DNA from: Escherichia phage ESCO5
Sequence record: NC_047776.2
Length of the DNA: 64,000 nucleotides
Reading direction: 5' to 3' (one strand)
The position numbers were made by a program, and so were the translations under genes. Under the pieces are notes generated by a model. That model saw only the letters and a program-made list of their open reading frames with translations. It ran no database searches and was not told the origin of the DNA. This document shows, one piece after another, positions 4,519-34,050 of this stretch; position 1 is the stretch's first letter; each line of letters starts with the position of its first letter.

Positions 4519-5149
4519 TATTTACCAACAAATAGAAGCATACGAAAATGCCATCTACTTAAATATAGGTGGCTTCCTTCAAGAATTAGTGGGGTTGCCA
4601 GTCTATGTTATGGATAAGCCATTCATTAAACCGGATACTCCTTACCTAGCACTACGTATTATCACTTCCAGCGATTCTGGAGGTTGGTCTTACCGAAGCT
4701 CTATTCAAAATGATATGTATTCCTACGAGATGGATAATACCTACGAGATTGAACTTGTAGCCTATCGTGGAAGACCTACCACTTTGATGAGCTATGTTCT
4801 GGCTGCTCTCCGTGGTGCAGAGGAATTAAAATACAAACATCTCTATTCTAAAGGTCTTGGTTTTTTAGGAGCCTCTAATATAGCTCAAGCCAATACGATT
4901 GTAGACGGAGATAAGACTGAATTAAGAGCGCGTATGGTTATGACGTTCAACACTCGTATGAGTATTGAAGATATTGCTACTACACCAATAGAAGCAATCA
5001 ACATGCACATCCGTTCATTCAGAGATAGTTACAATGATCCTATCCCTTTAGATTTAATTCTAAACAGGGTTTATGCAATTACTTTGGTTCCAGGCGAATA
5101 CTCGTCAGTTAATCAAAATGGATCATTATTTAACAACCCTACCGAATAA
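4490..5149 (+). CDS. hypothetical neck/tail completion protein
   Basis: 219 aa; overlaps upstream gene end; alternative TTG start at 4511 behind AAGGAGG. Confidence 0.55.
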   Translation: MEQKEETLANIYQQIEAYENAIYLNIGGFLQELVGLPVYVMDKPFIKPDTPYLALRIITSSDSGGWSYRSSIQNDMYSYEMDNTYEIELVAYRGRPTTLMSYVLAALRGAEELKYKHLYSKGLGFLGASNIAQANTIVDGDKTELRARMVMTFNTRMSIEDIATTPIEAINMHIRSFRDSYNDPIPLDLILNRVYAITLVPGEYSSVNQNGSLFNNPTE

Positions 5150-5183
5150 ACTCATTGGAATTAAGTTTCTAACAGGAGCATAA

Positions 5184-6557
5184 ATGGCAACTTTTCGTGA
5201 AAAGGTAGCAACCGTAACTTTACTGTATGGTGCTACATCAATTCGTGAAACCCAGTTCGATATTCCTCTGATCCTTACAGGTCAGAACGTAACTGGCGAA
5301 GCGATTCAATATTACTCTTCTTCCGATGCACTTTTGGAAGCAGGTTATGGATTAAATGATCCAGCGTATATTATGGCAGTCAAACTGTTTAACGGTTTGT
5401 TCCCACCAGATCAAGTCATGGTTGGTAAGCGTGAAGTTACAAACTTTACTCTAACTCCAATCGTAGAAGATAGTGCAACTTACACAATTACCATCAAAAA
5501 TGGTACCAAGAAAAAAGAATTTAAATTCATTGCTGATGACACTGCAACTGCACAAGAGATTGTAGTTGGTCTGACTGAAATGATCAATGCAGATCTTGTT
5601 TATGGCCCACTGTTTACAGTAGCTAACAACGGCGCTGCAATGACTTTCACTCCAGTAGAAGGTAAGTTTGGTTCTATTGACAGCACAGGTTTCACTCAAG
5701 AAACTGTCTATGCTAATGCTATTACGGAAGATATTGCTGCTCTGCATGATATTGATAGTAGCTGGTTCTGGACCCTTTCAGATTCCCATGAAACAGAAGA
5801 TATTCTAGCTTTGGCTGCATGGGTAGAAGAGAATGATAAAGTTTACTTCTTCTCTAGTTCTGAACCTGGAATTAAAACGAAAGCAGAAGATAACGTTCTG
5901 GAACGACTGAATGACCTCGGTTATAATAACACTTGCTTTGCATTGTGGATGACCGATGCAGATTCTGTATTCCCAGAAGCAGCAGTTGTTGGTGCTATCT
6001 GTTCTCGTCAACCTGGTTTAACTACCCTTCACGGTAAAACACTGGTAGGCGTAGAGATCGAGAAACTGGATCAGACTTCGGAAAACAATATTGTTCAACA
6101 GAACGGTAACATCTATCGTAAAGAGCATGGAACTCTGTTCTATCGTGATGGATTGATGGTTAGCGGTTTCTTTGTTGACTATGTTGTTCATGCTTTGTGG
6201 TTTAAAGCTCGCACAGAAGAATCACTGTTTACACTGTTTAAACAACAGTCTATGCTGGGTGGTGGTGTTCGTGCTACTTCAAACGGTCTGGCTTTGATTC
6301 GACAAGCTGTTCTGGCTAACCCGATCCAAGTAGGTATCCTCAACGGTTCCATCGCTAATGAAGTTGTTACTTCTGAAGAGACTGGTTTGCGTGTCGATCT
6401 GAAACCTATTGTTTATATTCCTTCTCGTGCCGATATGACCGATGCGCAAATCAATGCTCGTCTGGTTGATGGGATGAAGATTGAATATGTTTACGCTGGC
6501 TTCTTCCATTACGTTAAAGTTCAGGTCAACGTCCTGACTAACCGTACTGCAAACTAA
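5184..6557 (+). CDS. tail sheath protein
   Basis: 457 aa; AGGAG RBS; size and position immediately upstream of tube, chaperone and tape measure genes. Confidence 0.65.
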   Translation: MATFREKVATVTLLYGATSIRETQFDIPLILTGQNVTGEAIQYYSSSDALLEAGYGLNDPAYIMAVKLFNGLFPPDQVMVGKREVTNFTLTPIVEDSATYTITIKNGTKKKEFKFIADDTATAQEIVVGLTEMINADLVYGPLFTVANNGAAMTFTPVEGKFGSIDSTGFTQETVYANAITEDIAALHDIDSSWFWTLSDSHETEDILALAAWVEENDKVYFFSSSEPGIKTKAEDNVLERLNDLGYNNTCFALWMTDADSVFPEAAVVGAICSRQPGLTTLHGKTLVGVEIEKLDQTSENNIVQQNGNIYRKEHGTLFYRDGLMVSGFFVDYVVHALWFKARTEESLFTLFKQQSMLGGGVRATSNGLALIRQAVLANPIQVGILNGSIANEVVTSEETGLRVDLKPIVYIPSRADMTDAQINARLVDGMKIEYVYAGFFHYVKVQVNVLTNRTAN

Positions 6558-6563
6558 TACGGC

Positions 6564-6585
6564 GGGGGTTAAGCCCCCGTTATCA
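6564..6585 (+). terminator. stem-loop after sheath gene (weak terminator)
   Basis: CGGCGGGGG-ttaa-GCCCCCGTT hairpin; downstream tract not U-rich. Confidence 0.4.
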
Positions 6586-6603
6586 AAATAAAGAGGATCT
6601 ATA

Positions 6604-7083
6604 ATGGATAAAATGCTTACTGGCGTAATGGCCTACGACCCATCTCAAGTTATCCTTTCATTAGGTGGTTGGGAACCGTGGGGTTTTGCGGCTGATACTA
6701 AAATCGTTATTGCTAAATCTAACGATATTATCAACCCTTATTCAGGGACTGATGGGGACGTTTCATTAGCTTTGAGTCGTAACCGTTTGGGAACACTCAC
6801 AATGTCTTTGCAACGCACATCTCCAGCTAACGAAGTACTTGCAACATATGCACAAACAATGTATTCTACTCGTCAAGTAGCATTCAGTGTTTACTTGGAA
6901 GACCCACGTGGCTATTACATTAGCACGATTGGATGGATTCAAAGTCAGCCTGAAGATACTATTGGCGAAATGATTACAGAGAACCAATGGGTTATTGGTC
7001 TTAAAGATGCAAGCCTTCTGCGTAATGAAGTTGGTGTAGGTTTGAGCACCCTTAACTCAATCTCTGCTCTGACAATTCAATAA
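6604..7083 (+). CDS. tail tube protein
   Basis: 159 aa; AGAGGA RBS; between sheath and chaperone genes; followed by terminator. Confidence 0.6.
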   Translation: MDKMLTGVMAYDPSQVILSLGGWEPWGFAADTKIVIAKSNDIINPYSGTDGDVSLALSRNRLGTLTMSLQRTSPANEVLATYAQTMYSTRQVAFSVYLEDPRGYYISTIGWIQSQPEDTIGEMITENQWVIGLKDASLLRNEVGVGLSTLNSISALTIQ

Positions 7084-7089
7084 TAAATA

Positions 7090-7113
7090 AAGGGCAGAAA
7101 TGCCCTTTTTATC
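7090..7113 (+). terminator. rho-independent terminator
   Basis: AAGGGCA-gaaa-TGCCCTT followed by TTTATC. Confidence 0.7.
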
Positions 7114-7128
7114 ATTAGAGAGGAAAAT

Positions 7129-7611
7129 ATGTCACAAGAACAAGATAACACAATTCAAAAATATGCTCGACCAGAAGAAGTAGTTGAGATTCCGTTAGAT
7201 GGAAACAGATCTGTTACTTTCCGTATTATGAAGTGGAGTCCATCTAAAGTGTTTGACAGGATTCCAGAATTGGGTAGTGTTCTGGTTGTTCCTATGACTA
7301 TGTATAGCACAGCAACAATGTCCGCAGACGAAGACCTTGAGTCACGTATTGCTATGGCACTGATCCAACTTTTTGCAGGTTTGGAAGAAAAGAATTTAAC
7401 TGTCTTTTTGCGTAAAATTTTAGATGAGGTTTATACTCAAGACGGTTATAACGTTGCAGAAAATTTTGATGAATTATTTATGGCTCACCCAGAACTAGTG
7501 TTAGATCTTACTGCTAAAGTTCTGGAGGTAAACTACGGCCCTTTTTTCAAACGAGGTTTCGGAAAACTGTTCACACAGCTTCAGGCGATGACGAGTTTAG
7601 CAGCAAATTAA
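7129..7611 (+). CDS. tail assembly chaperone (G-like)
   Basis: 160 aa; GAGAGGAAAA RBS; lies between tube and tape measure genes. Confidence 0.65.
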   Translation: MSQEQDNTIQKYARPEEVVEIPLDGNRSVTFRIMKWSPSKVFDRIPELGSVLVVPMTMYSTATMSADEDLESRIAMALIQLFAGLEEKNLTVFLRKILDEVYTQDGYNVAENFDELFMAHPELVLDLTAKVLEVNYGPFFKRGFGKLFTQLQAMTSLAAN

Positions 7612-7877
7612 CACCTGCGATTGAACATGCTATCGACACAGCAACGAAAACCCTTACTTTGAAGTGGTATGAGGTTATTCTTTGCAAAGTCGTTAAAGAT
7701 ACCTCGGAAACACTGAAAACATTGGATAACTACGGTGTAGATTATCTTTTAAAACTATATGAGTATTTAACATACGAAGAGTATGTTGAAGCCATGTATG
7801 TTAAAGACACTTCAATAAAGAGAAAACATCAAAACCAGACAAATAAAATGTCAGATTTGTTTAAGAAACTTGTTTAA
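7129..7877 (+). CDS. tail assembly chaperone, predicted -1 frameshift fusion product (GT-like)
   Basis: Slippery heptamer T_TTT_TTC at 7542-7548; -1 frame open from there to stop at 7877; downstream ORF (track 7659) has TTG start and no RBS. Confidence 0.5.
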
Positions 7878-7897
7878 TCCAACACGAGGAACATACT

Positions 7898-9886
7898 TTG
7901 TTAGAAATTAACGCCTCCAAAATTAGTAACGTGGTTACGTTTAAGGTGGACAAGAACAGTCTCAAGGAAGCAAAAGATGCCGTGTTGAGTGTTCAGAAGT
8001 TTGCAAATAAAATGCAACCCACTATGAACATGACCAAGTTTAGACAACAAATGAAAGAGATTGAGCGTGAACTTAAGAAAGCTCAAACTCAAAGTCAAAA
8101 ACCTATGCGAGCACCTACTCCCGCTGGAGCGGGTGCTCCTGTAGGCGGATCTGGCAGACCTAGAACTCCTAAAACCCCGCAAGGAAGAGAAGAAGAAAAA
8201 GCTCGTAAAGCTGCTGAACGCGAAGCTAAAGCAGCAGCACGTAGGGAAGACTTAGGTAATCTTCGTTTGCAGAACTTTAACTATCGAGCAAGAGCATTTA
8301 GTAAAGCCAGTCCTGGCGCTATGCAAGAAGCTAGAGACGTTATGGGTAAAGCTGTAGAGCAATACAAAAAGGGTGAAATAACTCTTCAACGTATGAACCA
8401 AGCTCTTGCTCACCAGTTAGATGCTTTACGCAGATCGCATCGTGAAAAGAATGCTGAAATAGAAGACGAGGTTCGTGGTCGCCGTCGTATTCGTAGAGAG
8501 CTAGAAGCAGAAGCTAAAACCCGTATACGTATGCGAAATCGTGAACTTAGAGATATAGAACGCAACCGTAAGCGTGAATTAGCTCAACAAAGACGTGATC
8601 GTGATCGTCGATATGGACAATTAAAAGAAGGTGCGGCAGGTCTTAATCCACGCATGATTGCATCCTCTTTGATCGGTGCTGGGTTATTTGCAGGGGGTTC
8701 TGTAGTTGGTAACACTTTGATGAATACTAACGAAAGGATTAAACTTGTAAGCCGTGGTGCTGAAAACGTTCAGACAAACGCCAACGCTATTTTGGCAATG
8801 ACAGCTTGGGGTGAACAGAACGGTGTAGACTCTGCAAATATTATTAAGTCAATAGATAATATTAAAGACGTTCGTGAACGTCTTGGTAATACAGTTTTAG
8901 CCTCAAAATGGAATGAGAAAGAAGGGAAGTGGAAAGGCGGTGATAATGGCATAAATGACATTATGAACTTGTTTGGATGGAATCCAGAACAGCTTAAACC
9001 TTTACAGAACGATCCTTTGGCTTTTATTCAGGCTACTGTTAATGAAGGTGAGCGTCGAGGTATGAACTCTGCTCAAATCGGGCGACTTCTTGAAAACCTT
9101 GGTGATGACCTTATGCACTACCAACGTATGTTTAGTAAAAACGGCGAAGGGTATAATGAAGTATTGAAAATGCTTCAAAGAACAGGTGCAACATTAACTC
9201 AAGAACAAATAGATGCTTCTAAAGAGTTTACTCGTTTTGCTGCAACAGTTCAGCTTGTAGGTCAAGGTATGCAGAACCATTTCTTAGAGGGTTTTGTGAA
9301 AGCCTTACCTAAAGATGATTCTTGGTTGGATAACGTTAAAGTGCTAGATCAGTTTGCCAAAGATTTAGGTGAAGAACTTGGTAAGACAACAGTTCAATTA
9401 GGAGGTTTTGCTAAAGAATTGGGAGATGGTTTCGGATCTTTTACCAATTGGCTTAAAGAGACATTCCCAGACACCTTCGGAGACAACACAGATCCTAATA
9501 AATCTATGGCACAAAAGGCATATGAGGCAACGCAAAGTGGAGACAGCAATCCTGTAGCAGATTGGTTGTACAATTTAACAGGTATTGATACACAAGATGT
9601 TGGTCGTATGTGGAGAGGAGAACAAACAAGGACACGTGCTTTTGGATTTGGTAATCCTCTTGAAGATTTACGTGAATCAGCCTATACACCTAACGTAAGT
9701 TTGGCTCGTAATCAACCTATTGTTGAGAATACGGTAGCAATACCAAGTGATCTTATCAAAGTTACGATCAGCCCTTCTTCAGAGTTTGGAAATATTCTTG
9801 ATGCAAGAATTCAAAATAGCGGAAATAGCATTTTCCAACGTTTATCTCTTTCAACTCTAAGTGGACAATCTAACACTGGTGGTTAA
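7898..9886 (+). CDS. tail tape measure protein
   Basis: 662 aa; TTG start with GAGGA RBS; Arg/Glu-rich coiled-coil region; hydrophobic segment MIASSLIGAGLFAGGSVVG; position after chaperones. Confidence 0.7.
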   Translation: MLEINASKISNVVTFKVDKNSLKEAKDAVLSVQKFANKMQPTMNMTKFRQQMKEIERELKKAQTQSQKPMRAPTPAGAGAPVGGSGRPRTPKTPQGREEEKARKAAEREAKAAARREDLGNLRLQNFNYRARAFSKASPGAMQEARDVMGKAVEQYKKGEITLQRMNQALAHQLDALRRSHREKNAEIEDEVRGRRRIRRELEAEAKTRIRMRNRELRDIERNRKRELAQQRRDRDRRYGQLKEGAAGLNPRMIASSLIGAGLFAGGSVVGNTLMNTNERIKLVSRGAENVQTNANAILAMTAWGEQNGVDSANIIKSIDNIKDVRERLGNTVLASKWNEKEGKWKGGDNGINDIMNLFGWNPEQLKPLQNDPLAFIQATVNEGERRGMNSAQIGRLLENLGDDLMHYQRMFSKNGEGYNEVLKMLQRTGATLTQEQIDASKEFTRFAATVQLVGQGMQNHFLEGFVKALPKDDSWLDNVKVLDQFAKDLGEELGKTTVQLGGFAKELGDGFGSFTNWLKETFPDTFGDNTDPNKSMAQKAYEATQSGDSNPVADWLYNLTGIDTQDVGRMWRGEQTRTRAFGFGNPLEDLRESAYTPNVSLARNQPIVENTVAIPSDLIKVTISPSSEFGNILDARIQNSGNSIFQRLSLSTLSGQSNTGG

Positions 9887-9893
9887 TAAAATA

Positions 9894-9916
9894 CCTCGCT
9901 TCGGCGGGGTTTTTTC
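9894..9916 (+). terminator. rho-independent terminator after tape measure gene
   Basis: CCTCGC-ttcg-GCGGGG stem with UUCG tetraloop followed by TTTTTT. Confidence 0.75.
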
Positions 9917-9923
9917 GTTTCCC

Positions 9924-9953
9924 TTGACACAAAGTTTCTATATGTGTTACAAT
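9924..9953 (+). promoter_or_regulatory. sigma70-type promoter for baseplate operon
   Basis: TTGACA (9924-9929), 18-nt spacer, TACAAT (9948-9953). Confidence 0.6.
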
Positions 9954-9963
9954 AATCAATATG

Positions 9964-9986
9964 GGAAGATCTTGCATCTTCCTTTT
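9964..9986 (+). promoter_or_regulatory. 5' leader hairpin
   Basis: GGAAGAT-cttgc-ATCTTCC perfect inverted repeat followed by TTTT, a few nt downstream of the predicted start site. Confidence 0.4.
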
Positions 9987-10012
9987 GGCATTATCATTAC
10001 TACGAGGTTATC

Positions 10013-31377: not shown

Positions 31378-34050
31378 ATGTTTCCAATTCCAATATTTAC
31401 TATTATGACCAGCACTGGTGTCGTTCCTCTGCCAGCAGGTATTGTTAAAAAAGTAATCACTCTAGATTACCCAGATAATGCTGGCAATTCTAATAGCAGT
31501 TTAGCAATTTTGCTTAATGATGGTAGATTGTTTACTCAAGGCGCAAACCTTTTTGGTGAGATTGCAGATGGAACTCGTAGTGCACGATTCAATAATTTCC
31601 ACTTAGCTTCTACTGTAGTAGCGGATGTGTTTACCGCAGATCGTTGTTTTGTTATTAAAACTAACAGTGGGGGATGGCAATATTCAGGATTGACAGCAGG
31701 GTTGGTAGGATCTATAGCAGCAGGTGGTACGGATGCATGTGTAACTACTTGGACCAGCTTTCCATCTGTAATAACAGGGACTATCTCTTTAGCCAATCTT
31801 AAAGAGGTTAAGGGAGGATATAACAACACTCTCTGGTTGATGAATAGTGGTGTTCTTTATGGATCAGGTCAAAACACAGTAGGCAGTTTAGGTGCAAGTA
31901 CTACTAACGAAGTTTCTACTCCTCGTCAGATAACAAGTGCAGCAGTTGCTTTTGATGCAGGTTACAACCAATGCTCTTATGTCAACAATGTGGGAACCTT
32001 GCGTGTTTGTGGGGCTAGTAAAGGTTTAGCAGGTAATAATAACACAACAACAGCTTTTGTCAATGCCAAGATATCCGCTACTGAAACAGTGTATGTCAAA
32101 GATTACATCAATACAGTTTCCCAGACAATAGTTGTAGGAGATACCTCCGGTGGCACGGGTACAGTAAACTACTTATATGTTAGATCTAATACAGAAACAA
32201 CCTACACTAAACTGGACACCTTTGCAGCAGGTTTCTCAACATGGAAATTTCCACCAAGCCGCCACTCTTTTTTCGTTGGGATCAATAATTCCTTGTGGGC
32301 TATTGGTAAGAACTACACTGCAAACTTAGGTTTGGGGTATGATTCTGCGAGCGGAGATCCACTCCAAGTGGGAAAACCAGTTAAACCTGAAGGAGTGGGT
32401 TCCTGGGATATAAACAAGCTCACAAGCGTTCATACACTGAATATGGATGTTACTAACCAATTAGGTTATCAAGGAACCTTTTTCGTTTATAATGGAGATA
32501 TGTATTATTCAGGTATTTGGAAAGATGGGAAAGCCTCGTATCTGTTCAATAGTGGTCTAAACTATAATAAATTCACACCAATAGCAAGCTCCGTGATTAC
32601 AGGGGATGTTCTGGCAACTGGCTTAACTACAGATTCTTTAGGAATTTGTATTGTAGGTGGAACTAAACAGTTGACACATTCTGTTAGCCCAGAAGGAGGT
32701 AAACTTTTCAATATTAAATACACTTCTTCTGCCCCTGCAAACATGACAATATCATCTACTGGTTTAATGACTTTCCATGCAGAAGGTGGTTTTGATGCAG
32801 GTATGACAGCCTTAAACGCTGAAGGAACAATTTTATCAGATACCTCTGGAGGATATGCTTCAACATTGAGTGTTTACACCCCTAGCTTATCTGCGATGGA
32901 TGTAGGAACAACACAAACAATGGTAGCAGAAATAACACCAACAGGAGCAGCAAGCTTACCTGATATGGTTGTTGAGTATACAACTACAGATCCTAATGTT
33001 GCTACAGTAGATCCTACAACTGGTGTAATAACTGGTGTTGGTGATGGTGGTTGTAGGATTGGTTGCACAGCTACGTATCAAGGTGTTGTTACCGCTTCTG
33101 ATAGTTCTTATTTAACGGTGAATGCTGTTGCGGGAAAGGAGTTAGCTCCATCTCCGAGTAGTAGTTTAACGGTTCTAAACGGATATTTCAACCACTCGGC
33201 AGATGGGGCAATTACGTTCCCAACTTTATCGGGTACTGTTACACCAGCTAACTTTGTAGTTAAGGTGGATGACGTTGTAGTTCCTTCAAGTAAAGTAATA
33301 TTTAGAAACAAAGCTTTCTCTACAGTGGATAGTTATCCAGCAGGAGAATATAGACTGGCTATTGAATTTGCAAGTGCTTCAGTAGTTAATAGTGTGGAAG
33401 TGTCTATGGAAGCAAACCCAAGTCTTTTAGAACTTTGGGGCGGTAATAGAATCAGTTATTCTACAAGCCCAGCCTCACAATTCTTAAAAGGTTGTGCTAA
33501 CTTAAGACGAATAACTTCTGATTGTTTTAGTAACACATCTTACACCGGAACATCTATAAGCGGTATCTTCTCTGGCTGCACAAGTTTGACAGCTATCCCT
33601 GAAGGATTATTCAGTGATGCTTTATTTCCTTCAATGACAACAATGTCAAGCACGTTTGAAGGTTGTACATCTTTAACATCTATTCCTTCAGATTTATTTA
33701 AGAATCTGTCAAAAGTTACAAGATATTCTTACACCTTTAAAGATTGCACCTCTCTTGCAGAAGTTCCAGCAGGAATGTTTGATAATATTCCAACGAAAGT
33801 GACCTCTTTAACAGCTACATTCCAAGGTTGTTTAGGACTTACAGATTTTAATAAGATCTTTAATGACAACCCAGGGTTAACTGTTTGTGGTAAACGTGGA
33901 GCATTATCTTCTTTCTTTAGTGGATGCACAAATCTTACAGGAACAGGAACAACATTAACAAATACATTAGGCGGAGTAGCTAATAGTTACCTATTCAGGT
34001 ATTGCACAAAACTTTCTGATTATAACAACATTCCTTCCGGTTATAAATAA
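31378..34050 (+). CDS. tail fibre with Ig-like (Big_2-type) and BspA-type leucine-rich repeat C-terminal domain
   Basis: 890 aa; repeated FxGCTSLTxIPxxLF units (CANLRRITSDCF, GCTSLTAIPEGLF, GCTSLTSIPSDLF, DCTSLAEVPAGMF, GCLGLTDF); TTDPNVATVDPTTGVITGVGDGG Ig-like segment. Confidence 0.6.
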   Translation: MFPIPIFTIMTSTGVVPLPAGIVKKVITLDYPDNAGNSNSSLAILLNDGRLFTQGANLFGEIADGTRSARFNNFHLASTVVADVFTADRCFVIKTNSGGWQYSGLTAGLVGSIAAGGTDACVTTWTSFPSVITGTISLANLKEVKGGYNNTLWLMNSGVLYGSGQNTVGSLGASTTNEVSTPRQITSAAVAFDAGYNQCSYVNNVGTLRVCGASKGLAGNNNTTTAFVNAKISATETVYVKDYINTVSQTIVVGDTSGGTGTVNYLYVRSNTETTYTKLDTFAAGFSTWKFPPSRHSFFVGINNSLWAIGKNYTANLGLGYDSASGDPLQVGKPVKPEGVGSWDINKLTSVHTLNMDVTNQLGYQGTFFVYNGDMYYSGIWKDGKASYLFNSGLNYNKFTPIASSVITGDVLATGLTTDSLGICIVGGTKQLTHSVSPEGGKLFNIKYTSSAPANMTISSTGLMTFHAEGGFDAGMTALNAEGTILSDTSGGYASTLSVYTPSLSAMDVGTTQTMVAEITPTGAASLPDMVVEYTTTDPNVATVDPTTGVITGVGDGGCRIGCTATYQGVVTASDSSYLTVNAVAGKELAPSPSSSLTVLNGYFNHSADGAITFPTLSGTVTPANFVVKVDDVVVPSSKVIFRNKAFSTVDSYPAGEYRLAIEFASASVVNSVEVSMEANPSLLELWGGNRISYSTSPASQFLKGCANLRRITSDCFSNTSYTGTSISGIFSGCTSLTAIPEGLFSDALFPSMTTMSSTFEGCTSLTSIPSDLFKNLSKVTRYSYTFKDCTSLAEVPAGMFDNIPTKVTSLTATFQGCLGLTDFNKIFNDNPGLTVCGKRGALSSFFSGCTNLTGTGTTLTNTLGGVANSYLFRYCTKLSDYNNIPSGYK

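What the first reader, a model, noticed from the sequence alone, without database searches (positions are those of the whole stretch)
7542..7877. Candidate programmed -1 ribosomal frameshift in the tail assembly chaperone gene
The chaperone ORF (7129-7611) contains the slippery heptamer T_TTT_TTC at 7542-7548 (codons Pro-Phe-Phe). The -1 frame is open from that point through the downstream ORF to the stop at 7877, and the downstream ORF has only a TTG start with no RBS. This reproduces the conserved G/GT frameshift found between the tube and tape measure genes of tailed phages, and predicts a fusion protein of about 250 aa.
Basis: partly seen in the sequence, partly recalled or inferred. Interest (0 to 1): 0.6.

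Follow-up and report, generated by a model that had tools for sequence, protein, structure and literature searches.

The report
Unannotated tail-chaperone ribosomal frameshift site
The phage's tail assembly chaperone gene almost certainly uses the classic "slip back one base" trick to make a second, longer protein; this is real and strongly conserved but is an ordinary, already-known kind of phage feature that database records for this phage group simply fail to annotate.

Summary
The window is Escherichia phage vB_EcoM_REC (Phapecoctavirus). ORF 7129-7611 is a tail assembly chaperone (Pfam PF21822) lying between the tube and tape-measure genes. It contains T_TTT_TTC at 7542-7548 in the slippery phase, overlapped by a second heptamer, C_CCT_TTT, at 7539-7545. 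The -1 frame is open from 7518 to the stop at 7875-7877, giving a 249-aa fusion.

Comparative evidence is strong. All 40 distinct homologous contexts keep the heptamer's three synonymous sites invariant while neighbouring codons vary. The stretch 7614-7658, before the only candidate start (TTG 7659), evolves as -1-frame coding sequence. The first possible start codon wanders between codon 28 and 83 of the downstream part among relatives. Two distant lineages replace the heptamer with other canonical ones (G_GGA_AAG, A_AAT_TTT).

A homologous chaperone in Citrobacter phage Moogle has the same heptamer at the aligned position and is already annotated as a frameshifted joined CDS. No 3' RNA structure was found. 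A GGAGG lies 13 nt upstream.

Verdict: a genuine lambda G/GT-type -1 programmed frameshift, unannotated in this and all related Stephanstirmvirinae/Vequintavirinae records examined. It is a new member of a known kind, of low-to-moderate interest, and is not experimentally shown.

The parts
6604..7083 (+). Tail tube gene (context: upstream neighbour of the chaperone)
   Evidence: phrog_280 E 3.1e-35 and Pfam KPP10_Orf10. Annotated 'putative tail tube' in OM386667.1.
7089..7108 (+). Terminator-like hairpin plus T run between the tube and chaperone genes. It probably lowers chaperone and tape-measure transcription relative to tube.
   Evidence: 8-bp stem, AAAGGGCAGAAATGCCCTTT + TTAT. The same site is annotated as a terminator in Schickermooser.
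7129..7611 (+). Tail assembly chaperone 'G' ORF: 160 aa, 18.2 kDa, the product of standard translation
   Evidence: Pfam PF21822 Phage_TAC_15 E 1.3e-23 (cut-off 22 bits, score 84.3). phrog_3840 'tail assembly chaperone' E 2.8e-55.
7524..7528 (+). Internal Shine-Dalgarno-like GGAGG, 13 nt before T_TTT_TTC and 10 nt before C_CCT_TTT. Possible 5' stimulator (inferred).
   Evidence: An SD-like motif lies 12-14 nt upstream in 30 of 40 distinct homologous contexts and also in Moogle.
7539..7548 (+). Slippery site: overlapping heptamers C_CCT_TTT (7539-7545) and T_TTT_TTC (7542-7548). A -1 shift at either gives the same peptide.
   Evidence: CCT/TGT + TTT + TTC is invariant in 40/40 distinct contexts. 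H_HH.U_UU.Y motifs are among the most efficient in E. coli (PMC4066793).
7518..7611 (+). Overlap window in which both the zero frame and the -1 frame are open (dual-coding after the slip site)
   Evidence: Variability at zero-frame third (synonymous) positions is strongly reduced around the slip site (entropy 0.40 against 1.19 upstream).
7548..7877 (+). -1 frame 'T' part: 109 codons plus TAA at 7875-7877, translated only after the shift. It includes the previously called small ORF 7659-7877.
   Evidence: phrog_16039 (unknown function) E 1.2e-44. The AF2 model is all-helical but low confidence.
7129..7877 (+). Predicted GT fusion: 7129-7548 joined to 7548-7877 with base 7548 read twice. 249 aa, 28.8 kDa.
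7898..9886 (+). Tape measure protein gene (context: downstream neighbour), TTG start preceded by GAGGA
   Evidence: phrog_16051 E 0.

Best explanation

Most ribosomes translate 7129-7611 and release the 160-aa chaperone G. A minority slip back one base on C_CCU_UUU_UUC (7539-7548), when tRNA-Phe in the P and A sites re-pairs from UUU_UUC to UUU_UUU. This fraction is inferred to be in the low per-cent range by analogy. Those ribosomes continue in the -1 frame to 7877 and make a 249-aa GT protein. GT consists of the TAC_15 domain, a variable linker and a conserved helical T domain.

By analogy with lambda, G and the G part of GT coat the 662-aa tape measure protein. The T domain recruits the tube protein to start tube polymerisation. 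Neither protein ends up in the virion.

Shown here: the sequence anatomy, coding signal in the -1 frame upstream of any start codon, lack of a conserved independent start, and deep conservation of the shift site. Inferred: that the shift happens, its efficiency, any role for the upstream GGAGG, and the protein functions.
For: (1) Anatomy is exactly as required.

(2) G is a TAC (Pfam PF21822; phrog_3840), located between tube and tape measure.

(3) In 58 homologous loci (40 distinct contexts) from Stephanstirmvirinae, Vequintavirinae and metagenomic viral contigs, the codon before the shift is always CCT or TGT, followed by TTT TTC. Adjacent synonymous sites vary (TAC 28 / TAT 12; GGC/GGT/GGA; four Val codons). 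G proteins in this set are down to about 30% identical.

(4) The -1 frame stays open for 102-149 codons in every locus whose sequence reaches the end of that frame.

(5) In 13 diverged Stephanstirmvirinae-type relatives (7 GenBank phages and 6 viral contigs), segment 7614-7658, before REC's only start codon, shows -1-frame third-position variability (entropy 1.53 against 0.82 and 0.42). It has no stops in that frame, while the other frames have stops in 7 and 9 of 13 sequences.

(6) The first ATG/GTG/TTG in the -1 frame falls anywhere from T-codon 28 to 83 in 43 distinct sequences, often inside the conserved domain.

(7) Aeromonas TS9 keeps T_TTT_TTC. Rheinheimera Barba1A instead has G_GGA_AAG five codons downstream, and Vibrio S4-7 has A_AAT_TTT. 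Each has an open -1 frame; the T parts of TS9 and Barba1A look homologous by eye, and S4-7's was aligned with the family.

(8) The Moogle chaperone aligns to the family profile (hhalign prob 96%, E 2.6e-9) with LEANFGSFF over LEVNYGPFF. It has T_TTT_TTC plus GGAGG at the same place, and its GenBank record carries a joined (frameshifted) CDS (PMC4319497).

(9) U_UU.U_UU.C and C_CC.U_UU.U are in the high-efficiency class in E. coli, working above 0.1% even without stimulators (PMC4066793).

(10) TTTTTTC is otherwise avoided in this window.
Against: There is no direct evidence of the fusion protein: no proteomics, ribosome profiling or reporter data were found for this phage group.

No conserved 3' stem-loop or pseudoknot exists (z-scores +0.25 to +1.45; alifold -1.5 kcal/mol), so efficiency may be low.

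The SD-like element is missing in 10 of 40 contexts.

Part of the nucleotide conservation around the site could come from dual coding and from a conserved peptide (LEVNYGxFF) rather than from the shift signal itself.

Sequences in the comparison are phylogenetically related, so counts are not independent.
Confidence: 0.9

Rival explanations
1. Transcriptional slippage: RNA polymerase inserts one extra U while copying the T6 run. Standard translation of the edited mRNA then gives the same GT protein. A non-translational mechanism has been proposed for T4-like chaperone genes, judging from the title of Vladimirov et al. 2022, which I could not read.
For: The site is a homopolymer run, and a +1 U insertion gives exactly the same protein (my derivation). 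The Vladimirov et al. title is cited in PMC12846349 and PMC10274946.
Against: The run is only 6 T. Efficient slippage by bacterial RNAP is reported for runs of about 9 A/T, and T5C5 shows none without context elements (PMC5009743).

The run is always in the X_XXY_YYZ phase.

Distant homologues use G_GGA_AAG and A_AAT_TTT, which are ribosomal slip heptamers rather than long homopolymers.
Confidence: 0.04
2. No recoding: the downstream ORF is expressed on its own from TTG 7659 (or a non-canonical start such as ATT 7620) as a separate small protein of 72-85 aa, and the heptamer is incidental.
For: Several GenBank records annotate a separate small ORF here. All database homologues of the T part are listed as 64-85-aa proteins.
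Against: There is no SD before TTG 7659. Coding-type conservation extends upstream of it. The start-codon position is not conserved, and in some relatives the first start lies at codon 58-83, inside the conserved domain. The heptamer's synonymous sites are invariant. The short database proteins are gene-caller outputs, not observations.
Confidence: 0.03
3. The -1 shift occurs mainly at the conserved downstream tetramer T_TTC (7557-7560, codons GGT TTC) rather than at the heptamer. That would give ...GPFFKRGF|RKTV... instead of ...GPFF|QTRFRKTV...
For: U_UU.C is the second most shift-prone tetramer in E. coli (PMC4066793). GGTTTC is conserved in most relatives.
Against: Tetramers are about 10-fold less efficient than the best heptamers and were barely active without a pseudoknot. 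No 3' structure is present here. GGTTTC conservation can be explained by dual coding (GF / RF).
Confidence: 0.03

Closest known systems
Bacteriophage lambda G/GT tail assembly chaperone -1 frameshift (Levin et al. 1993; Xu, Hendrix & Duda 2004; reviewed in PMC5009743)
   Same: It has two overlapping ORFs between the major tail (tube) gene and the tape-measure gene. [quoted passage not shown] No 3' stimulatory structure was found here; from memory, lambda likewise needs none. A minor long product is expected alongside a major short one (lambda about 30:1).
   Different: The heptamer is U_UUU_UUC (with an overlapping C_CCU_UUU) instead of G_GGA_AAG. The virus is a contractile-tailed myovirus of about 150 kb. 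The chaperone belongs to Pfam Phage_TAC_15; relatedness to lambda gpG was not tested. The shift site is 22 codons, not a few codons, before the G stop. An SD-like GGAGG lies 13 nt upstream.
Citrobacter phage Moogle 'tape measure chaperone' with annotated translational frameshift (KM236239, CPT_Moogle67/68; PMC4319497)
   Same: The chaperone is homologous (hhalign prob 96%, E 2.6e-9). The heptamer T_TTT_TTC is identical and sits at the aligned position (LEANFGSFF against LEVNYGPFF), with GGAGG upstream. The -1 frame is open for 107 codons to just before the tape-measure gene.
   Different: It belongs to a different family (Ounavirinae, Felix O1-like, 88 kb). G is only about 19% identical. T-domain similarity is marginal (E 0.0037, prob 9%). 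In Moogle the frameshift is annotated as a joined CDS; in REC and the other Stephanstirmvirinae and Vequintavirinae records examined it is not.
Conserved -1 PRF at a GTTTTT motif in the TAC locus of Vandenendeviridae and Andersonviridae (Pseudomonas phage Adele paper, PMC12846349)
   Same: The argument and architecture are the same: a TAC-N ORF, a poly-T slippery motif near its 3' end, an uninterrupted -1 frame through the 'hypothetical' ORF, and conservation across divergent genera. That paper places Stephanstirmvirinae and Vequintavirinae in the same wider clade.
   Different: As far as the passages I read show, that study did not analyse the Stephanstirmvirinae or Vequintavirinae TAC loci. 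In REC the base before the T run is C (CCCTTTTTTC), not G.
Phage T7 gene 10A/10B -1 frameshift at G_GUU_UUC (Condron et al. 1991; PMC5009743)
   Same: The A-site event is the same in E. coli: tRNA-Phe slipping from UUC to UUU on a U-rich heptamer.
   Different: It is a capsid gene, not a chaperone. The P-site codon is GUU. T7 depends on a distant 3' element, and none was found here.
E. coli dnaX -1 frameshift (A_AAA_AAG with a 5' Shine-Dalgarno and a 3' hairpin)
   Same: An SD-like sequence lies about 10-14 nt upstream of the heptamer. The spacing rule is recalled from memory of Larsen et al. 1994 and was not checked here.
   Different: There is no 3' hairpin. The heptamer differs. The SD-like element is not universally conserved (30/40).

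Membership tests
Lambda G/GT-type tail assembly chaperone -1 PRF | Pair of ORFs located between the major tail/tube gene and the tape measure gene | tested here: met
   Order is tube 6604-7083, G 7129-7611, T ORF to 7877, TMP 7898-9886.
Lambda G/GT-type tail assembly chaperone -1 PRF | Upstream ORF encodes a tail assembly chaperone | tested here: met
   Pfam PF21822 Phage_TAC_15, 84.3 bits against a cut-off of 22, E 1.3e-23. phrog_3840 E 2.8e-55.
Lambda G/GT-type tail assembly chaperone -1 PRF | Downstream reading frame overlaps the 3' end of the chaperone ORF in the -1 frame and lacks its own conserved start/RBS | tested here: met
   The -1 frame is open 7518-7877 with a 91-nt overlap. The first start is TTG 7659 without an SD. 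The start position is not conserved (codon 28-83). Coding periodicity is present before the TTG.
Lambda G/GT-type tail assembly chaperone -1 PRF | Canonical X_XXY_YYZ slippery heptamer, in phase, inside the overlap | tested here: met
   C_CCT_TTT at 7539-7545 and T_TTT_TTC at 7542-7548. Both belong to the efficient E. coli class.
Lambda G/GT-type tail assembly chaperone -1 PRF | Arrangement conserved in divergent relatives | tested here: met
   58 loci / 40 distinct contexts have an invariant heptamer. Alternative heptamers occur in Barba1A and Vibrio S4-7. Moogle has the same site.
Lambda G/GT-type tail assembly chaperone -1 PRF | Fusion protein actually made at a low fixed ratio and required for tail assembly; absent from virions | not testable with these tools
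   No proteomic or genetic data were found for this phage group.
Lambda G/GT-type tail assembly chaperone -1 PRF | G binds the tape measure protein; the T domain binds the tube protein | not testable with these tools
   Inferred by analogy only (PMC5009743). The AF2 model of the T part is low confidence (pLDDT 66).
Felix O1-like (Mooglevirus) annotated chaperone frameshift | Homologous chaperone with the shift site at the aligned position | tested here: met
   hhalign prob 96.2%, E 2.6e-9. FF of LEANFGSFF aligns with FF of LEVNYGPFF, and T_TTT_TTC is present in both.
Felix O1-like (Mooglevirus) annotated chaperone frameshift | Homologous T domain | tested here: inconclusive
   hhalign E 0.0037, probability 8.9%, over 34 columns at 38% identity.
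dnaX-type stimulated -1 PRF | Stable 3' stem-loop or pseudoknot 5-9 nt after the heptamer | tested here: not met
   MFE z-scores were +0.25 to +1.45 in six phages. RNAalifold gave -1.5 kcal/mol with no covariation.
dnaX-type stimulated -1 PRF | Shine-Dalgarno-like element about 10-14 nt 5' of the heptamer | tested here: inconclusive
   GGAGG at 7524-7528 is 13 nt (10 nt) upstream of the heptamers. A similar motif is present in 30/40 contexts and absent in 10/40. It is confounded with the conserved Leu-Glu-Val codons.
Programmed transcriptional slippage | Long homopolymer run (about 8-9 or more A/T for bacterial RNAP) independent of codon phase | tested here: not met
   The run is T6. It is always in slippery phase. 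Relatives use non-homopolymer heptamers. The threshold is from PMC5009743.

The most novel reading that the evidence does not exclude
One reading is that the T6 run makes GT by a non-canonical route: RNA-polymerase slippage, or a shift driven by the conserved nascent peptide LEVNYGxFF and the conserved downstream GGUUUCG element rather than by classical heptamer-plus-structure signals. That would make this deeply conserved, structure-less site a distinct mechanistic class of chaperone recoding. The site is shared by Ounavirinae, Vequintavirinae, Stephanstirmvirinae, Plateaulakevirus and related groups.
Probability: 0.07. Interest if true: 0.5.

Novelty: new member of a known kind. Interest (0 to 1): 0.22.

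Why it matters
The main value is practical. None of the roughly two dozen Stephanstirmvirinae, Vequintavirinae and related GenBank or RefSeq records examined annotates the joined product. These groups include phi92, phAPEC8, rV5 and PVP-SE1-like phages, some proposed for therapy. Records either list a truncated 'hypothetical protein' or leave a gap; the source record OM386667.1 has nothing between 74085 and 74370. All database homologues of the T part are 64-85-aa fragments. Correcting this gives the true 249-aa GT chaperone.

It also documents that one shift site (U_UUU_UUC after ...N-Y/F-G-x) has been kept across several phage families whose chaperones are only 19-35% identical. Only rare lineages swap in another canonical heptamer. 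This is a clean natural example of selection on a recoding signal that lacks a 3' structure. It does not change what is understood about tail assembly.

Tried and rejected
- **3' stimulatory RNA structure.** I folded 52-120 nt downstream of the site in REC and five relatives and ran RNAalifold on eight sequences. Nothing exceeded shuffled controls, so this was rejected.
- **Structure prediction of the 249-aa fusion.** The T part alone with 17 homologues gave pLDDT 66 and pTM 0.36, all-helical. That is too poor for a fold search, so none was run.
- **Family searches for the T part.** Pfam and NCBIfam returned only sub-threshold noise (dodecin, DcuR).
- **PDB sequence search with the G profile.** The only near-significant hit was a marginal full-length match to 5ir0_A, 'Uncharacterized protein ORF19' (E 0.019). 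I did not follow it up.
- **Literature.** Searches for a reported frameshift in phAPEC8, phi92, rV5, Stephanstirmvirinae or Vequintavirinae found none specific to these groups. The Vladimirov et al. 2022 paper was not available.
- **tblastn from rV5 and Aeromonas TS9 chaperones.** Neither reached Felix O1-like phages. The link to Moogle needed a profile comparison.
- **Other candidate mechanisms.** The +1 frame is open for only 7 codons past the G stop, so a +1 shift was rejected. Internal initiation after the GGAGG was rejected because no start codon follows it.

Full report
**Identity of the window and locus.** Region 5100-10000 is 100% identical to Escherichia phage vB_EcoM_REC (OM386667.1; Phapecoctavirus, Stephanstirmvirinae). 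It is 98.7-99.1% identical to the two dozen best-matching phAPEC8-like phages listed. The gene order on the + strand is:
- tail sheath 5184-6557 (phrog_205);
- tube 6604-7083 (phrog_280; Pfam KPP10_Orf10);
- ORF 7129-7611;
- small ORF 7659-7877;
- tape measure 7898-9886 (phrog_16051).

ORF 7129-7611 matches Pfam PF21822 Phage_TAC_15 (84.3 bits against a cut-off of 22, E 1.3e-23). It also matches phrog_3840 'tail assembly chaperone' (E 2.8e-55). In the source record this ORF is a 'hypothetical protein', and nothing is annotated between it and the tape measure gene.

**Checking the observation.**
- The zero-frame codons are GGC CCT TTT TTC AAA, so T_TTT_TTC occupies 7542-7548 in the X_XXY_YYZ phase.
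- A second formal heptamer, C_CCT_TTT (7539-7545), overlaps it. A -1 shift on either gives the same protein...VNYGPFF|QTRFRKTV....
- The -1 frame carries 13 stop codons between 7146 and 7515 and then none for 119 codons, until TAA at 7875-7877. The zero frame stops at 7609-7611.
- The first ATG/GTG/TTG in the -1 frame after 7518 is TTG 7659, and no Shine-Dalgarno-like sequence precedes it.
- The fusion is 140 + 109 = 249 aa, 28.8 kDa, against 160 aa and 18.2 kDa for G.
- TTTTTTC is under-represented in the window (16 against 31.5 +/- 5.2 in shuffles).
- Among the ORFs that carry it in the slippery phase, the only other one likely to be a real gene is the 890-aa ORF at 32268. There the -1 frame closes after 4 codons.

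**Comparative evidence that the shift site is under selection.** I collected homologous loci from three sources:
- GenBank Stephanstirmvirinae and close relatives (phi92, Tr1, KP13-26, phi1_175008, 05F01, FBKp34, and the unclassified PsgM04F);
- GenBank Vequintavirinae (rV5, 24-2-1, SPLA5a, KB57, CB7, CR9);
- 44 IMG/VR viral contigs.

G proteins in this set are only 26-83% identical to REC.

In 58 loci, giving 40 distinct 127-nt contexts, the codon before the shift is always CCT (17/17 Pro) or TGT (23/23 Cys). It is always followed by TTT and then TTC. The synonymous sites of neighbouring conserved residues vary freely: Tyr TAC 28 / TAT 12; Gly GGC/GGT/GGA; four Val codons.

The amino-acid pattern used to fish the IMG/VR loci included ...FF. 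This could bias towards Phe-Phe but not towards particular codons.

In every locus whose sequence reaches the end of the frame, the -1 frame is open from just upstream of the heptamer for 102-149 codons. It ends shortly before the tape measure gene.

In a 13-sequence ungapped comparison of REC with diverged Stephanstirmvirinae-type relatives (GenBank phages and viral contigs), synonymous-site variability drops around the shift site. Zero-frame third-position entropy is 0.40 from -9 to +30, against 1.19 in the upstream 140 nt.

**Evidence that the downstream part is translated from upstream of any start codon.**
- In the same 13 sequences, the segment equivalent to 7614-7658 lies after the G stop and before REC's TTG. 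It shows classic coding periodicity in the -1 frame (entropy by codon position 0.82, 0.42, 1.53).
- That segment has no stop in that frame in any sequence. The other two frames have stops in 7 and 9 of the 13.
- The encoded peptide (PAIEHAIDTATKTL in REC) aligns with the equivalent stretch in all relatives.
- Across 43 distinct sequences, the first possible start codon in the -1 frame falls anywhere between T-codon 28 and 83. It is often deep inside the conserved domain.

Independent initiation therefore cannot produce the conserved T domain in these phages.

**Replacement of the heptamer in distant lineages.**
- Aeromonas phage TS9 (Plateaulakevirus) keeps T_TTT_TTC at the aligned HYYKSFF.
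- Rheinheimera phage Barba1A has lost the T run (…HYGCLTSGKS…). Five codons further on it carries G_GGA_AAG, the lambda heptamer, in phase. Its -1 frame is open for 126 codons and its T part looks homologous by eye.
- Vibrio phage S4-7 has A_AAT_TTT.

Selection has therefore kept a slippery heptamer with an open -1 frame, not merely a Phe-Phe dipeptide. This also argues for ribosomal rather than transcriptional slippage.

**Stimulatory elements.**
- No 3' structure was found. Downstream segments of 52-120 nt fold no better than dinucleotide shuffles in REC, phi92, rV5, SPLA5a and CB7 (z +0.25 to +1.45).
- RNAalifold on eight Stephanstirmvirinae finds only -1.5 kcal/mol with no covariation.
- Upstream, GGAGG (7524-7528) lies 13 nt before T_TTT_TTC and 10 nt before C_CCT_TTT.
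- An SD-like motif (GGAGG, GAGGT or GGAG) sits 12-14 nt upstream in 30 of 40 contexts and is absent in 10. It is also present in Moogle.
- Because it coincides with conserved Leu-Glu-Val codons, its role is only a possibility.
- Sharma et al. 2014 place H_HH.U_UU.Y heptamers among the most efficient in E. coli. Both U_UU.U_UU.C and C_CC.U_UU.U belong to that class. The paper lists both among motifs giving more than 0.1% frameshifting without any stimulator, and it finds U_UU.U_UU.C in IS elements (PMC4066793).

**Relation to what is known.** The lambda G/GT paradigm is reviewed in PMC5009743. It describes a 30:1 ratio, G binding the tape measure protein, the T domain binding the major tail protein, and neither protein being present in virions. 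The present locus satisfies every sequence-level criterion.

More specifically, Citrobacter phage Moogle (Felix O1-like, Ounavirinae) has a 'tape measure chaperone' annotated as a joined CDS (flag j2) and described as having a translational frameshift.
- Its chaperone aligns to the REC-family profile with hhalign probability 96% (E 2.6e-9).
- LEANFGSFF lies over LEVNYGPFF.
- Its DNA reads GGAGGCAAACTTCGGAAGTTTTTTC, with T_TTT_TTC at the aligned position and a 107-codon open -1 frame.
- The T-domain match to Moogle is only marginal (E 0.0037).

A December 2025 paper argued for the same conserved -1 PRF at a GTTTTT motif in Vandenendeviridae and Andersonviridae. It regards Stephanstirmvirinae and Vequintavirinae as related clades (PMC12846349).

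I found no paper or record annotating the shift in Phapecoctavirus, phi92-like or rV5-like phages. All protein-database homologues of the T part are 64-85-aa 'hypothetical' fragments. The rV5 RefSeq record starts its ORF 50 at a CTG codon exactly at the shift site. This suggests the long frame was noticed but not interpreted.

**Rival explanations.**
- *Transcriptional slippage* would yield the same protein through a U7 mRNA. However, the run is only six T, efficient bacterial RNAP slippage is described for about nine, and relatives use non-homopolymer heptamers.
- *Independent expression of the small ORF* is contradicted.
- *A shift at the conserved downstream tetramer T_TTC (7557-7560)* is possible as a minor route. 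Tetramers are much weaker and were essentially inactive without a pseudoknot.

**Verdict.** The finding is a correct identification of a G/GT-type programmed -1 frameshift. It is supported by strong comparative evidence but no experiment. It is a new (unannotated) member of a well-known kind, homologous to a site already annotated in Felix O1-like phages. Confidence in the mechanism is about 0.9. Interest is low to moderate.

Noticed in passing
window 7089-7108 and 9893-9910; promoter-like 9924-9953: Terminator-like hairpins lie directly after the tube gene and directly after the tape-measure gene. A near-consensus sigma-70-like promoter (TTGACA-18-TACAAT, 11/12, with TG) follows the second. 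Chaperone, GT and tape measure thus look like a separately attenuated unit downstream of the highly expressed tube gene. The same terminators are annotated in phage Schickermooser.
   Followed up: partly
window 32268-32274 (in ORF 31378-34050, 890 aa): This is the only other T_TTT_TTC in slippery phase within a likely real gene of the window. The -1 frame closes after 4 codons, so a shift there would only truncate the protein. It is probably incidental.
   Followed up: partly
whole window: TTTTTTC is about two-fold depleted (16 found against 31.5 +/- 5.2 expected from shuffles, both strands). This is consistent with general avoidance of slippery or slippage-prone runs.
   Followed up: no
window 7557-7560 (GGT TTC); L004-L018 equivalents: A U_UUC shift-prone tetramer lies 9-12 nt after the heptamer, inside a highly conserved GGTTTCG element. 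The element encodes Gly-Phe in frame 0 and Arg-Phe in frame -1. It could be a secondary shift site or simply dual-coding conservation.
   Followed up: partly
L065 (Rheinheimera phage Barba1A) 1230-1236; L019 (Vibrio phage S4-7) 1200-1206: Distant homologues have replaced the T run with other canonical heptamers. Barba1A has G_GGA_AAG, identical to lambda's, and S4-7 has A_AAT_TTT. Both keep the open -1 frame.
   Followed up: yes
L012 (rV5, NC_011041) 1251-1619: RefSeq annotates ORF 50 as starting at a CTG codon exactly at the shift site, overlapping the chaperone gene by about 100 nt. This looks like an annotation workaround for the unrecognised frameshift.
   Followed up: partly
search hits: Records named Campylobacter phage, Acinetobacter phage vB_AbaM_ABPW7, Klebsiella phage ZCKP1 and Dompiswa phage TSP7_1 are 98.8-100% identical to E. 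coli Phapecoctavirus in this region, at the DNA or chaperone-protein level. The host labels of some of these records look doubtful.
   Followed up: no
window 7129-7608 (profile A2) against PDB 5ir0_A: There is a marginal but nearly full-length sequence match (E 0.019, residues 21-146 against 12-136) to a solved 161-aa 'Uncharacterized protein ORF19'. It may be a structural representative of this chaperone family.
   Followed up: no
whole window: No tRNA genes were found in the 64-kb window (ARAGORN). At least this part of the genome therefore shows no phage-encoded tRNA-Phe that might tune the shift.
   Followed up: no
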